Source: a virus. Taken from it: DNA of 64,000 bases. Shown here one piece after another: positions 14,625-18,962 of the stretch (its first letter is position 1; the number at the start of each line of letters is the position of its first letter). The DNA is taken from positions 1 to 64,000 of the IMG/VR virus record IMGVR_UViG_3300031251_000970; one strand, given 5' to 3'. Made by a program: the position numbers and the translations under genes. The notes beneath the pieces were generated by a model that was not told the DNA's origin, did no database searches, and saw nothing but the letters and a program-made list of their open reading frames with translations.

Positions 14625-15632
14625 TTATTGCTTGGATTGCAGCCGAGCCTGAACCGACTCGATAACCGTGACGAGCGTTTTGAATTGAGTCTCGACCAGT
14701 CGTTGCTCGAAAAAGTTCGCATCCGACAGTTTGAGCGAACCGAGTTGATTCAATTCTTCCAAATAGCTGCCGATTAACTCCAGGTCTGTCTTGAGTTCAA
14801 ACGTCACGACCTCGGTTGCCGCCGCCTTCTTTTCCGGTTCCTGAAATCTCCAGGACGTTCCGACGTTTCCGCGATAGGGCGAAACTGATGCTCGTTCGAC
14901 TGATTCGCGTTCGAGTCGTTCGTTTTCCGCTGCGGCGTCGGCTTTGTCTTTCTCGGCTTTCGCGTTCAGTTCGTCGATTCGCTTGTTTTCAGCGTCGATT
15001 TTGGCTTGTTGTTCGTCGATCTTCCGCTGCTTTTCGGCGAGTTCGTCGCTGATTCGTTTTTGTTCCGCTGCGATCTCGGCCAATCGATCGGCTTCGGCCT
15101 TTTGTTCCGCCGCGAGTTTTGCATCGGCTTCGGCTTTCTCCCGTCGCTGGCGATGATATTCGGCCGTTCTGACAAGCAAATCGGCGAATGCTTCGTCCGT
15201 CCAATCGCGAATATTCTCGGGAAACATGAATCCGCCCAGTTCTTCGATCTTCGATTTGCGGATGTGCTCGCGGATATCGAGTCGTTGCTTTTCGATCGCT
15301 TCTTTTTCGGCCTCGACGGCATCTTCCATCTTTTTCAATCGCTGTTCAGTCGGATTGATTTTCGATTGGAGTTTCTCAGCGGCCGCGTCGACTTTCTTGA
15401 TCTTGTCGCGGAAGAATCGACCGGCGTTCAATCGTTCATCCTCGATCGTCGTGCGAATATCTCGGCAGGCGAGGCGAGCCCTCTTGACGGCTGCGAATCC
15501 CTCCTTGTCGTCGATTCCGTCGATCTTCAATCCCGAATATTTCGCGACGGTCTCTTCGATCGTCTTTTCGGTGATCGTAATCAGTTCTGGTGTTTTTGCT
15601 TCGGCGTTCGGATCGATCAGTTCGGTGATCAT
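14625..15632 (-). CDS. Coiled-coil phage protein
   Basis: E/K/A/R-rich heptads; [15 protein letters not shown]-terminus. Confidence 0.75.
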
Positions 15633-16369
15633 GCGGTTTCCTTTGTTTGCTTTTCGAGTTCAGCCAAACGTTTCATATCTGCCATCGCTACATCGTCGCT
15701 GTCGAAGAATCGACGTGGCGAGATTTCATAGCCAGACTTTTTATAAATCTGCATCGCCGCGAACAGCGTCGACGTTTTTTCTTCGAGTTCTTTACCCTCT
15801 TTACCGGCGAGAACCACGGTCCAGCCCGCTCGGCAATGAACGGTCTTGCATTTGTGCCAGCTCGACATGCAGAAAGCATCGGGTTTCGATGCGGCCTCGT
15901 AAATTTTCTGATGAATATTGTCGATCGCTGGAATAGAAAAAGCCTCAGTTTTCTGCGGCGACAAATCGGAGCAACGGAAGCAACCGGAGCAATCGTAGCA
16001 ACCGGAGCAATCGGAGCAATCGGAGCAATCGGAGCAACGGGAGCAACCGTAGCAACCGGAGCAATCGGAGCAACGGGAGCAACCGTAGCAACCGGAGCAA
16101 CGGAAGCAACCGGAGCAACGGGAGCAACGGGAGCAACGGGAGCAATCGGAGCAACGGGAGCAACCGGAGCAATCGTAGCAACCGGAGCAACCGGAGCAAT
16201 CGGAGCAATCGGAGCAACGGGAGCAACCGTAGCAACCGGAGCAACTCAATAATGCGAGAATTGCATTTTCTTCCGATCCGAACCAATTCACAGCGGCTCG
16301 GTTGTTTCTTTCATCGATTGCGACTCCATTTTCGATCTTGATTAGTTTTCGGCGTTCCTCGTTTGTCAT
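15629..16369 (-). CDS. Cys-rich (CxxCxx)n repeat protein
   Basis: 31 C-x-x triplets followed by a [13 protein letters not shown] domain. Confidence 0.8.
15965..16243. repeat. Coding tandem repeat, 31 x 9 bp
   Basis: Minus-strand unit TGC-TNC-NNT repeated 31 times. Confidence 0.95.
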
Positions 16370-17222: not shown

Positions 17223-17939
17223 TTAGAATGGAATGTCCGATTTGTAGTCTTCTCCGGCTTCCAGGAATGGCATCAGATCGTGCCGCTGAAACTCTGAAAC
17301 GCAATAGGACGACACCGGCCCGAGAACCGTGAATGTTACTCCAGGATATTGCTTCGCCAGTCGCTTGGCCTCGGCTTCGGCATATTCGACGCATGTGTGT
17401 TCGTAGTTCGCAGGTCCGTGATCGCTCTTGACGATCCAGAATGCTCGTGGTCCGCGAGGTTCCTTTATGATCGATTGCGGTTCTGCGGGTTTCTCGGGAC
17501 GCCTCACGAATTCGAATAGGCTTGGGATGAATCGCGATTTATCCACACCGCTCGAAATCTCAATAAATCCGCAAGCCGATATTCCCGTAATTCGATATTC
17601 TTTCCCGATGATTGGAGCATCCGGCGGAAGGATAATTGTGCGGCCATGAATTTCTTGACGAATTTCTGCAATGCATTTTACGATATCGCCGACCTTCCAT
17701 TGATTCGGCGGAAGTGGACCGATGACAACTTTTTCGAATATCGACTCCGGATAATGCCGATGGAATCCATAATCATTTCTCACGACAACTCGCGGACTCT
17801 CATGCCCCTCCGCACATCGCACAACGATGTATCTTTTGAGCGACGTCAACCCGCTTTCCTTATGCTGGTCGATGCATTCGACCATGTCTCCCTCGTGGAA
17901 CTTTCGTCCCAGTGCCGCAGATTCATTTTGCGAACTCAT
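17223..17939 (-). CDS. Hypothetical protein with two SH3/KOW-like repeats and an acidic DIPF tail
   Basis: FHEGDMVECI and WKVGDIVKCI repeats; ends in SDIPF. Confidence 0.7.
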   Translation of the reverse strand: MSSQNESAALGRKFHEGDMVECIDQHKESGLTSLKRYIVVRCAEGHESPRVVVRNDYGFHRHYPESIFEKVVIGPLPPNQWKVGDIVKCIAEIRQEIHGRTIILPPDAPIIGKEYRITGISACGFIEISSGVDKSRFIPSLFEFVRRPEKPAEPQSIIKEPRGPRAFWIVKSDHGPANYEHTCVEYAEAEAKRLAKQYPGVTFTVLGPVSSYCVSEFQRHDLMPFLEAGEDYKSDIPF

Positions 17940-17951
17940 TTTCGGTTCCTT

Positions 17952-18656
17952 TCAAAGTCCTGATTGCCATTGATGAGCGGGATGCTGATTTGCTTTCCGC
18001 CAGAAAAACGCTTCTCTTGCTCGGATCATGATGAGATGAGCGATGACTTCATCCGTCGGCACCATTGCTCCATATGTGGTCCCTTCGTAGTACCCGAGCG
18101 GATGCAGACACAGAGCACAGAGAATCTTCATTTCTCCGTTCTGATCGGGAGCAAGAGCGATCGTCGGCTTTCCCTTTCGCAGCCAATAGGTCACGCCCGA
18201 TTTCTTTGATGATTCGAGAATCATTCCATGCAGCACATATGCCGCGAACAAATGCGGCTTGATCATCTGCCGCAGAGTATCCATCGCAATCAATTCGGCT
18301 TCCATGTCCTGCACTTCGGCGACTTCGAATACCGCGAGTTGTCTTTTTATTCCGCCTCCCAGTCGTTCGCGGCATTCCAGTTCAATGCCATGTCCGCGTT
18401 TTCCATTGTGCTCGAAAATCACGACGGTTCCGCCGCGTCGCGGACACCACCAGGAGTTGATGATTTTCCATTCGCCGAGCTCGTCACTTATTGCTGATTC
18501 CTCGGCTCCGAGAGTCGCTCCATTCAATGTCGGAATCCCATACCCTTCCGCGATTGAAAGCGGGAAACTTGCGATCGGAACTGGAGCACCACACCATTCG
18601 CCACGTTCAGCCGCGATCTCGCTTGCGACCTTCGATATTTGCAGCATTGTGACCAT
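17952..18656 (-). CDS. Hypothetical protein with CxxCxHP motif (partner of the GG-ending protein)
   Basis: LCALCLHP...PTDEVIAHL...EAFFWRKANQH; its ATG abuts the upstream TGA. Confidence 0.75.
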   Translation of the reverse strand: MVTMLQISKVASEIAAERGEWCGAPVPIASFPLSIAEGYGIPTLNGATLGAEESAISDELGEWKIINSWWCPRRGGTVVIFEHNGKRGHGIELECRERLGGGIKRQLAVFEVAEVQDMEAELIAMDTLRQMIKPHLFAAYVLHGMILESSKKSGVTYWLRKGKPTIALAPDQNGEMKILCALCLHPLGYYEGTTYGAMVPTDEVIAHLIMIRAREAFFWRKANQHPAHQWQSGL

Positions 18657-18962
18657 TCAACCACCTGCCGTTCGAGGGACGCCAATTGCCTTCGTTTTGT
18701 CCATCGCGACGCGGCGAGATTTGTATCCTCCCCGCTTCGCCGGAGTCGTCGCCGGTTCTGTGATGATGTATTCATCGCGATCGGGGTCGAACTTTTTGAC
18801 CGGATGAAGTTCTCCGTCAACTTCAATCGCAAGCAGATACCCGCGTTTCAGCATGTCGTTAATCATCGTTTTTGCTTTTTTGATGTCATCCGGTTTCGAC
18901 TTGTCGATCTTCACTCGGATGTCACCCGCAGAGCAGTTCAAGATTCTCAATTCTCCAGACAT
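18657..18962 (-). CDS. Small protein ending in Gly-Gly
   Basis: 101 aa from ATG 18962 (AAGGA RBS), ending VPRTAGG-stop. Confidence 0.75.
   Translation of the reverse strand: MSGELRILNCSAGDIRVKIDKSKPDDIKKAKTMINDMLKRGYLLAIEVDGELHPVKKFDPDRDEYIITEPATTPAKRGGYKSRRVAMDKTKAIGVPRTAGG

What the first reader, a model, noticed from the sequence alone, without database searches (positions are those of the whole stretch)
17952..18962. Coupled gene pair: small protein ending in Gly-Gly plus a Cys/His partner, a candidate ubiquitin-like conjugation module
Seen: a 101 aa protein ends ...GVPRTAGG-stop, and its TGA directly abuts the ATG of a 234 aa protein carrying LCALCLHP...PTD...E.FF..ANQH. Established: a free C-terminal Gly-Gly is the activated end of ubiquitin, ThiS/MoaD, SAMP and bacterial Ubl proteins. 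Inference: the pair could be a minimal phage modifier and its ligase or peptidase, or a decoy of bacterial Ubl-based defence. No E1/ThiF, E2 or JAB gene is recognisable in the window, so the chemistry would be non-canonical or supplied by the host.
Basis: partly seen in the sequence, partly recalled or inferred. Interest (0 to 1): 0.75.

Follow-up and report, generated by a model that had tools for sequence, protein, structure and literature searches.

The report
Phage Gly-Gly-tailed protein with Cys-His partner
This prophage carries a widespread but unnamed two-gene unit, a small protein that almost always ends exactly at Ala-Gly-Gly and a partner with a never-changing Cys-x-His-Pro site predicted to hold that tail, which looks like a stripped-down ubiquitin-style pair without an activating enzyme, though no chemistry has been shown.

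Summary
On the minus strand, a 101-aa protein (18657-18962) ends VPRTAGG. Its TGA abuts the ATG of a 234-aa protein (17952-18656) that carries LCALCLHP...PTD...ANQH.

The pair is a real, conserved cassette.
- A small-protein homolog lies beside the partner in 98 of 115 related loci, and 94 of those 98 end in GG-stop.
- Twelve protein clusters fuse the two genes in frame at ...AGG|MS....
- The partner family has 662 cluster representatives, with Cys183, His185 and Asp202 invariant in 95 of 95 sequences.
- A complex prediction passes its controls (0.78 against 0.12). It puts the GG tail and the small protein's conserved loop on the Cys-x-His face.

What is not established:
- No Pfam, PHROG, NCBIfam, PADLOC or PDB sequence match exists for either protein.
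- Fold matches are weak: beta-grasp or Sm-like for the small protein, UBC/RWD-like for the partner's C-domain.
- Profile comparisons with ThiS/MoaD and Prok-JAB are negative.
- No E1 or JAB is present.

Best reading: an obligate tail-in-pocket complex, possibly doing E1-less Cys/His chemistry at the terminal glycine, as E2-CBASS does. Earlier reports of this scan describe what reads as the same kind of pair in other genomes.

The parts
18657..18962 (-). Gene for the small subunit (101 aa plus TGA): conserved N-terminal alpha/beta domain, variable linker, conserved tail ending AGG.
   Evidence: Translation. Alignments A1 and A3 (61 sequences) give invariant L8, G13, G41, Y65, G100 and G101. The AF2 model has the order bb-a-bbb-bb, pLDDT 71.
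18753..18962 (-). N-terminal domain of the small protein (residues 1-70), including the conserved hairpin loop L-N-x-G-x-G-D (residues 8-14).
   Evidence: Conservation. Residues 6-15, 33-45 and 51-54 lie in the predicted interface. The fold is ambiguous between beta-grasp-like and Sm-like.
18660..18680 (-). Codons for the C-terminal tail V-P-R-T-A-G-G (residues 95-101), followed directly by the stop.
   Evidence: Family motif [VI]-[AGP]-[RP]-[ST]-A-G-G-stop in 94 of 98 adjacent homologs. Residues 93-101 are in the predicted interface.
18654..18659 (-). Junction TGA-ATG: the small gene's stop abuts the partner's start, which suggests translational coupling. Twelve protein clusters elsewhere lack the stop and read ...AGG|MS... 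in one frame.
   Evidence: Sequence. Fusions.
17952..18656 (-). Gene for the partner (234 aa plus stop), a two-domain protein: N-domain residues 1-115 and C-domain residues 116-234.
   Evidence: Translation. AF2 pLDDT 90.8. 99 homologs. 662 cluster representatives for the C-domain profile.
17955..18311 (-). C-domain of the partner (residues 116-234). Topology is a-a-bbbb-loop-a-a, weakly UBC/RWD-like, and it holds nearly all the invariant polar residues.
18099..18110 (-). Codons TGT CTG CAT CCG, giving Cys183-Leu-His185-Pro186 at the end of the fourth strand.
   Evidence: Read. C183 and H185 are present in 95 of 95 sequences and P186 in 94 of 95. Residues 183-189 are in the predicted interface.
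18051..18059 (-). Codons for Pro200-Thr201-Asp202 at the start of the helix that the small protein packs against.
   Evidence: P200 and D202 are present in 95 of 95 sequences, and position 201 is T in 89 and S in 6. D202 contacts L8 and N9 of the small protein with the lowest expected error.

Best explanation
The two genes encode an obligate 1:1 complex. The small protein (compact alpha/beta domain, variable linker, conserved tail) lays its sheet on the partner's helix 200-213. It threads its ...R-T-A-G-G end onto the invariant Cys183-x-His185-Pro loop of the partner's C-terminal domain, which has UBC/RWD-like topology. I think the pocket most likely does Cys/His acyl chemistry on the terminal glycine. 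It would cut fused or extended precursors after GG, then hold or pass on the tail. That would make it a minimal ubiquitin-type module without its own E1, working like the lone E2 of E2-CBASS. Shown here: conservation, linkage, fusions at GG|M, and a predicted complex that passes its controls. Inferred: the fold assignments, the position of the terminal Gly relative to Cys183, and any covalent step. For the majority form, which ends at a free GG-COOH, transfer would need activation supplied in trans, for example by a host MoeB/ThiF-type enzyme. This is a step I could not test.
Confidence: 0.4

Rival explanations
1. A non-catalytic, purely structural heterodimer. The tail is only a docking peptide, and Gly-Gly is kept because the pocket is too tight for side chains. 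The complex has some other role in early phage functions such as replication, recombination or host takeover.
For: Nearly all conserved residues of the small protein lie in the predicted interface. In-frame fusions fit the rule that fused genes encode interacting partners, without any need for cleavage. RWD and UEV relatives of the UBC fold are adaptors without catalysis (recalled knowledge); the fold hits include RWD domains. No activating enzyme is present.
Against: The partner keeps a cluster of invariant polar residues typical of an active site: E121, E148, Y157, T165, C183, H185, D202, R212 and E215, each in 95 of 95 sequences. Ending exactly at GG in 94 of 98 copies, with rare GG+extension forms, is hard to explain by packing alone.
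Confidence: 0.3
2. A sulfur-carrier-type pair that works like MoaD-MoaE, ThiS-ThiG or TtuB-TtuA. The host's MoeB/ThiF adenylates and thiocarboxylates the GG end. The tail then delivers sulfur, or an acyl group, inside the partner's pocket, perhaps for a nucleic-acid or cofactor modification.
Against: There is no profile similarity to ThiS/MoaD: hhalign probability 0.6%. The partner shows no resemblance to MoaE, ThiG or TtuA in any search. No sulfur-transfer or substrate-forming genes travel with the pair.
Confidence: 0.12
3. An anti-defence decoy. The GG-tailed protein mimics the substrate of host ubiquitin-like defence enzymes (Bil, Bub, CBASS Cap2 or E2) and the partner presents or protects it.
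For: The pair sits in the early or accessory region of temperate phages, in varied company. Bacterial defence pathways act on C-terminal glycines (PMC11601596, abstract; 10.1101/2022.05.25.493364). The family is overwhelmingly viral.
Against: The tail co-varies with, and is predicted to be occupied by, its own partner rather than left free. The pair occurs in prophages of many phyla regardless of any known defence content. No PADLOC hit was found.
Confidence: 0.1
4. A toxin-antitoxin-like enzyme-inhibitor pair. The small upstream protein plugs the active site of a Cys/His (or Cys/His/Asp metal) hydrolase with its C-terminal carboxylate.
For: It is a two-gene cassette with a small upstream gene and an abutting stop and start. 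The order is occasionally swapped and the context is mobile. The tail sits on the invariant site.
Against: The small protein has no DNA-binding domain. Fusions of the two are fixed in a whole group of sequences. There are no PADLOC or Pfam toxin hits. My JAB-like metal-site idea found no profile support: hhalign probability 0.4%.
Confidence: 0.05

Closest known systems
E2-CBASS (type II short CBASS): lone bacterial E2 acting on the C-terminal glycine of its CD-NTase (Serratia marcescens; bioRxiv 10.1101/2022.05.25.493364, PMC12948482)
   Same: It is a two-protein unit without an E1. The substrate's C-terminal tail, with a conserved Gly, is inserted in the pocket of an E2-fold protein that uses a Cys plus a His. 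That E2 cuts after the Gly and forms a thioester and then an isopeptide (sections 4 and 6 read). The fused GG|MS forms of the phage family would offer the same kind of leaving group.
Sulfur-carrier pairs MoaD-MoaE, ThiS-ThiG, CysO-CysM, TtuB-TtuA
   Same: A small subunit ends in Gly-Gly, is encoded next to and sometimes fused with a larger subunit, and inserts its tail into that subunit's pocket. The E1-like activator is encoded elsewhere (established knowledge; the MoaD-MoaE fusion comes from the PMC8832034 listing). MoaD chains and a 65-residue sulfurtransferase-entry chain (5ztb_E) align weakly to the whole model.
   Different: There is no profile similarity to ThiS/MoaD. The partner is unlike MoaE, ThiG or TtuA. 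The small protein has two extra strands and a long variable insert before its last strand.
Bacterial ubiquitination-like operons Bil, Bub and type II CBASS Cap2/Cap3 (PMC11601596; PMC10557695; Iyer et al. 2006, PMC1779556, classes 6a-6e)
   Same: They have a Ubl with a C-terminal Gly, an E2-like protein, and in Bub a fused Ubl precursor that is cut to expose the end (abstract and section headings read).
   Different: All of these include an E1 and usually a JAB or serine peptidase. None is found with the phage pair. They are host defence systems, whereas this pair is phage-borne.
Lambda and T1 tail assembly protein I (Ubl with C-terminal Gly) with JAB-containing protein K (Iyer et al. 2006, PMC1779556)
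   Same: This is a phage-encoded ubiquitin-like domain with a conserved terminal glycine, paired only with a peptidase and without E1 or E2 (passages read).
   Different: That pair sits in tail-assembly clusters and uses a recognisable JAB domain. Here the pair sits among replication and early genes, and the partner shows no JAB profile similarity.

Membership tests
Ubiquitin-like beta-grasp modifiers / ThiS-MoaD superfamily | Beta-grasp fold | tested here: inconclusive
Ubiquitin-like beta-grasp modifiers / ThiS-MoaD superfamily | Free C-terminal Gly-Gly directly after the last strand | tested here: met
   8 of 8 homologs, and 94 of 98 adjacent homologs end in GG-stop. In the model the last strand (91-95) is followed by RTAGG. 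A variable insert of roughly 10 to 50 residues (my estimate from the protein lengths) precedes that strand.
Ubiquitin-like beta-grasp modifiers / ThiS-MoaD superfamily | Sequence-profile similarity to ThiS/MoaD (PF02597) | tested here: not met
   No Pfam hit. hhalign of A3 against 26 ORFs taken from ThiS/MoaD loci (one looks spurious) gives probability 0.6%, and the negative control against JAB gives 0.3%.
Ubiquitin-like beta-grasp modifiers / ThiS-MoaD superfamily | Cognate E1/ThiF-MoeB adenylating enzyme | tested here: not met
   No PF00899 match in the 81,876-bp provirus, which is 78% complete. There is none among the conserved neighbours in 115 loci. A host enzyme acting in trans is not excluded.
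Ubiquitin-like beta-grasp modifiers / ThiS-MoaD superfamily | Covalent attachment or thiocarboxylation at the terminal Gly | not testable with these tools
   This needs mass spectrometry or gel-shift assays.
UBC/E2 fold enzymes (including E2-CBASS E2, Prok-E2 families) and RWD/UEV relatives | UBC/RWD fold (a-bbbb-a-a) | tested here: inconclusive
UBC/E2 fold enzymes (including E2-CBASS E2, Prok-E2 families) and RWD/UEV relatives | HPN motif after strand 4 | tested here: not met
   His185 is present in 95 of 95 and Pro186 in 94 of 95 sequences. The Asn position is Leu here and Ile in the consensus. Equating this motif with HPN is my own alignment.
UBC/E2 fold enzymes (including E2-CBASS E2, Prok-E2 families) and RWD/UEV relatives | Invariant catalytic Cys downstream of HPN | tested here: not met
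   The equivalent position 199 is C 54, V 19, T 14, A 4, P 2, I 1 of 95, and Val in this window. The invariant Cys183 instead lies two residues before the His.
UBC/E2 fold enzymes (including E2-CBASS E2, Prok-E2 families) and RWD/UEV relatives | Sequence match to UQ_con or Prok-E2 Pfam models | tested here: not met
   No Pfam family at E up to 0.1 for the protein. None of 61 family members hits any E2, RWD or UEV model at E up to 5.
JAB/MPN+ metallopeptidases | E...HxH...S-x-x-D zinc motif and JAB profile similarity | tested here: not met
   There is only a loose likeness: E148...C183-x-H185-P...T201-D202. hhalign of A4 against 21 Prok-JAB sequences gives probability 0.4%. There is no Pfam hit. 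Structural likeness to JAB was not seen, but a domain-only model was not tried.
Toxin-antitoxin modules | Known toxin or antitoxin domain, or a DNA-binding antitoxin | tested here: not met
   No Pfam, NCBIfam or PADLOC hit for either protein.

The most novel reading that the evidence does not exclude
Temperate phages of many bacterial phyla carry their own minimal ubiquitin-type modifier system. It consists of a GG-tailed tag and a single Cys-His enzyme of UBC-like fold that processes the tag and attaches it to phage or host proteins. The enzyme would work either without any E1 (using the peptide bond of fused or extended precursors) or by borrowing the host's MoeB/ThiF. This would be the first phage-borne protein-tagging system, and a new E2-like catalytic arrangement with the Cys two residues before the His on strand 4.
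Probability: 0.2. Interest if true: 0.85.

Novelty: new variant of a known kind. Interest (0 to 1): 0.65.

Why it matters
Ubiquitin-like tagging in bacteria is currently known as a host weapon against phages (Bil, Bub, type II CBASS). A phage-encoded counterpart would change that picture. The family here is large (662 cluster representatives), spread over many phyla, and has no activating enzyme. If it tags proteins, it would also widen the range of chemistry known for E2-like folds. If instead the pair proves to be a non-covalent complex, it still defines a large, unnamed phage protein family. That family has a clear, testable interface and a very unusual constraint on where the protein must end.

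Tried and rejected
Family libraries gave nothing for either protein: Pfam, PHROGs, NCBIfam and PADLOC. Pfam on all 61 members of A2 gave only scattered chance hits.

PDB sequence searches with profiles A2 and A4 gave only chance hits at E 0.23 or higher.

tblastn against deposited phages gave one distant hit for the partner (Virus Rctr197k) and none for the small protein.

Foldseek on PDB found nothing at E 0.001 or better for either model. Foldseek on BFVD found only the Rctr197k relative. The ESM Atlas returned only unnamed viral clusters. Its nearest named cluster for the small protein was a ThiS family at 0.77, which is within the chance range.

JAB idea: I noticed that E148...C-x-H-P...T-D resembles the JAMM motif. 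hhalign of A4 against 21 Prok-JAB sequences gave probability 0.4%, so I dropped it as homology. No JAB, MoaE, ThiG or E2-CBASS chain appeared in the VIA lists.

ThiS/MoaD homology: hhalign probability 0.6%.

Stand-alone C-domain idea: ten or so loci seemed to hold only the C-domain. On inspection they are truncated, frameshifted or at contig edges, so I rejected the idea.

My estimate of the distance between the small gene's stop and the partner's start was unreliable in GC-rich loci. I use only the gene order from that call.

The tree of fused forms was not clean: the smallest clade holding the 14 chains that carry both domains (12 full fusions plus 2 deletion derivatives) has 43 tips, 29 of them unfused. 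I therefore make no claim about one or several origins.

Literature searches found no paper on this family. Supplements were closed and were not consulted; they may hold gene lists of E2-like or Ubl families that I could not check.

I did not use sequencing-run tools.

Full report
WHAT IS THERE. Both genes lie on the minus strand. Window 18657-18962 encodes a 101-aa protein ending ...AIGVPRTAGG. Its TGA (18657-18659) abuts the ATG (18654-18656) of a 234-aa protein (17952-18656) that contains ...KILCALCLHPLGYYEGTTYGAMVPTDEVIAHLIMIRAREAFFWRKANQHP.... The pair sits in a tightly packed, co-directional early and replication block: a DnaD-like loader, DnaB, DUF1643, a 143-aa ORF, the pair, a 238-aa ORF and a DNA methyltransferase. 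The record is an 81,876-bp provirus estimated at 78% complete. Only this one of 564 ORFs of 60 aa or more in the window ends in GG, against an expected 0.56%.

NO KNOWN FAMILY. Neither protein hits Pfam, PHROGs, NCBIfam or PADLOC. None of 61 partner homologs hits a relevant Pfam model at E up to 5. Profiles find nothing in PDB sequences. The only deposited phage with a relative is Virus Rctr197k.

THE FAMILY AND ITS CONSTRAINTS. The partner has 99 homologs in the 5.8-billion-protein set, all unnamed. A profile of its C-domain finds 662 representatives at 50% clustering, 444 of them at E 1e-30 or better, and the domain is always C-terminal. The small protein has 7 detectable homologs by single-sequence search, and all 8 sequences end P-x-T-x-G-G.

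I fetched 65 viral loci and 50 genome loci by the partner. I searched their ORFs with a profile of the small protein.
- A homolog lies next to the partner on the same strand in 62 of 65 viral loci and 36 of 50 genome loci.
- The 17 misses are contig edges or truncated or frameshifted partner copies.
- The small gene is upstream in 88 loci and downstream in 6.
- 94 of these 98 small ORFs end in GG-stop, usually [VI]-[AG]-[RP]-[ST]-A-G-G.
- Three of the four exceptions keep a GG inside the chain and then add residues: L050 (VAGG+SR), L105 (PTAGG+SAPELLWDP) and L041. L086 differs at its end.

The small protein has a conserved N-domain, a linker that varies in length and composition, and a conserved last stretch of about 20 residues. 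Invariant positions in 61 sequences are L8, G13, G41, Y65, G100 and G101. In 95 non-redundant partner C-domains, E121, E148, Y157, P164, T165, C183, H185, Y190, G196, P200, D202, R212, E215 and W219 never change.

The genome loci are labelled as many different phyla, including Verrucomicrobiota, Planctomycetota, Proteobacteria, Acidobacteriota, Chloroflexota and Saccharibacteria. They are mostly MAGs.

FUSIONS. Two of the 150 listed representatives (P0111, P0118) and ten more proteins from a search for longer relatives carry the small protein and the partner in one reading frame. The ten are P0254, P0256 and P0258-P0265, found among 16 hits. The junction is always ...AGG|MS.... No extra residue stands at the junction, so these are not read-through translations of TGA. 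A truncated thirteenth protein (P0255) continues after GG with Cys. P0267 and P0120 are deletion derivatives, and P0222, P0257 and P0266 look like chimeras.

NEIGHBOURS. Clustering all ORFs of the 115 loci and the window shows no third conserved gene. The commonest neighbours are DUF5131 (24 loci), integrases, DUF2303, C5 methyltransferases, RecT and DnaB. No ThiF and no Prok-JAB is present in the provirus.

These values are under the tool's own noise mark, so the fold is a lead and not a result. The strand-4 end C183-L-H185-P186 recalls the E2 HPN motif. The Asn is missing, though. The position I align with the canonical E2 cysteine (199) is C in 54 of 95 sequences and Val here.

COMPLEX. With alignments of 61 rows each, the complex prediction scored ipSAE 0.78 (runs 0.70, 0.79, 0.78) against a best control of 0.12. 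That mark was reached by 58 of 80 solved complexes and 2 of 110 mismatched pairs. The runs agree in at least 95% of contacts, and partner pLDDT is at least 83. The counts hold only roughly, because my own alignments were used.

The interface joins small-protein residues 6-15 (the L-N-x-G-x-G-D loop), 33-45, 51-54 and 93-101 (the tail) to partner residues 8-12, 19-25, 34-39, 116-127, 183-189, 191, 194, 197-199, 202, 205-214, 217, 221-223 and 231. So the sheet of the small protein lies on helix 200-213, and the tail reaches the Cys-x-His loop. This supports binding but does not show it. I could not see coordinates, so the distance from Gly101 to Cys183 is unknown.

READING. Three points are firm. 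The cassette is real, widespread and phage-borne. The two proteins almost certainly form a 1:1 complex. The exact AGG end is under strong selection.

Ending at GG, the rare GG+extension forms and the GG|M fusions are the habits of ubiquitin-type proteins and sulfur carriers. An invariant Cys-x-His beside the tail suggests acyl chemistry. The lone E2 of E2-CBASS shows that an E2-fold Cys/His enzyme can process a tail after a conserved Gly and form a thioester and an isopeptide without any E1 (10.1101/2022.05.25.493364, sections 4 and 6; PMC12948482, abstract). That route needs a leaving group. Only the fused or extended forms have one. The majority form would need activation in trans, for example by host MoeB/ThiF as for MoaD or ThiS.

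I therefore put about 0.4 on covalent Cys/His chemistry at the glycine, 0.3 on a purely structural heterodimer, and the rest on sulfur-carrier-like, decoy and inhibitor-pair readings.

KNOWN RELATIVES AND NOVELTY. The pair works most like E2-CBASS and like MoaD-MoaE-type tail-in-pocket pairs. It is a demonstrable member of neither: every sequence test failed and the fold tests are inconclusive. Phage precedent exists only for lambda and T1 protein I with the JAB of protein K (PMC1779556, passages). My three literature searches found no description of this family.

Earlier reports of this scan describe what reads as the same kind of pair in other genomes and reach similar verdicts. One of them gave me the lead to the E2-CBASS papers, which I then read myself.

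I class the pair as a new variant of a known kind, with interest 0.65.

Noticed in passing
window 17223-17939 (-): The 238-aa protein just downstream of the pair ends ...EAGEDYKSDIPF. This resembles the acidic C-terminal tip of bacterial SSB (the D-D-D-I-P-F motif, recalled), which recruits replication and repair proteins. It has only weak PHROG hits to families of unknown function and may be a phage protein that competes for SSB-tip binders.
   Followed up: no
window 15629-16369 (-): A 246-aa protein has a long run of Cys-rich repeats of the C-S[10 protein letters not shown] type. It matches PHROGs 31265 and 15341, both of unknown function.
   Followed up: no
L116 5171-6426 and 7506-8345 (Virus Rctr197k, KX853510): A distant version of the pair sits in a 197-kb phage. 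The upstream 143-aa protein looks like two copies of the small domain and ends ...VPSTIPG, so PG rather than GG. The 268-aa partner keeps C-V-H and P-P-T-D-E-V. A second, more diverged protein with a similar C-V-H motif, possibly a partner paralog, lies 1 kb downstream (not compared further). CRISPR arrays flank the region.
   Followed up: partly
loci L037, L032, L029, L071 and others: In other phages the pair often sits beside DUF5131 (phage Gp37/Gp68 family; 24 of 115 loci), integrases, DUF2303, RecT and C5 DNA methyltransferases. That is the recombination and DNA-modification end of temperate phage genomes.
   Followed up: partly
proteins P0222, P0257, P0266: Pieces of the pair are fused to what looks like a malic-enzyme N-terminus (my recognition), to a protein with a PF00275 domain, and to a long unrelated C-terminal stretch. 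These are probably assembly chimeras or prophage-junction artefacts rather than real architectures.
   Followed up: no
loci L106, L108, L110-L113 (Verrucomicrobiota MAGs): Several genomes hold only truncated C-terminal pieces of the partner without the small gene. They look like decaying prophage remnants.
   Followed up: partly
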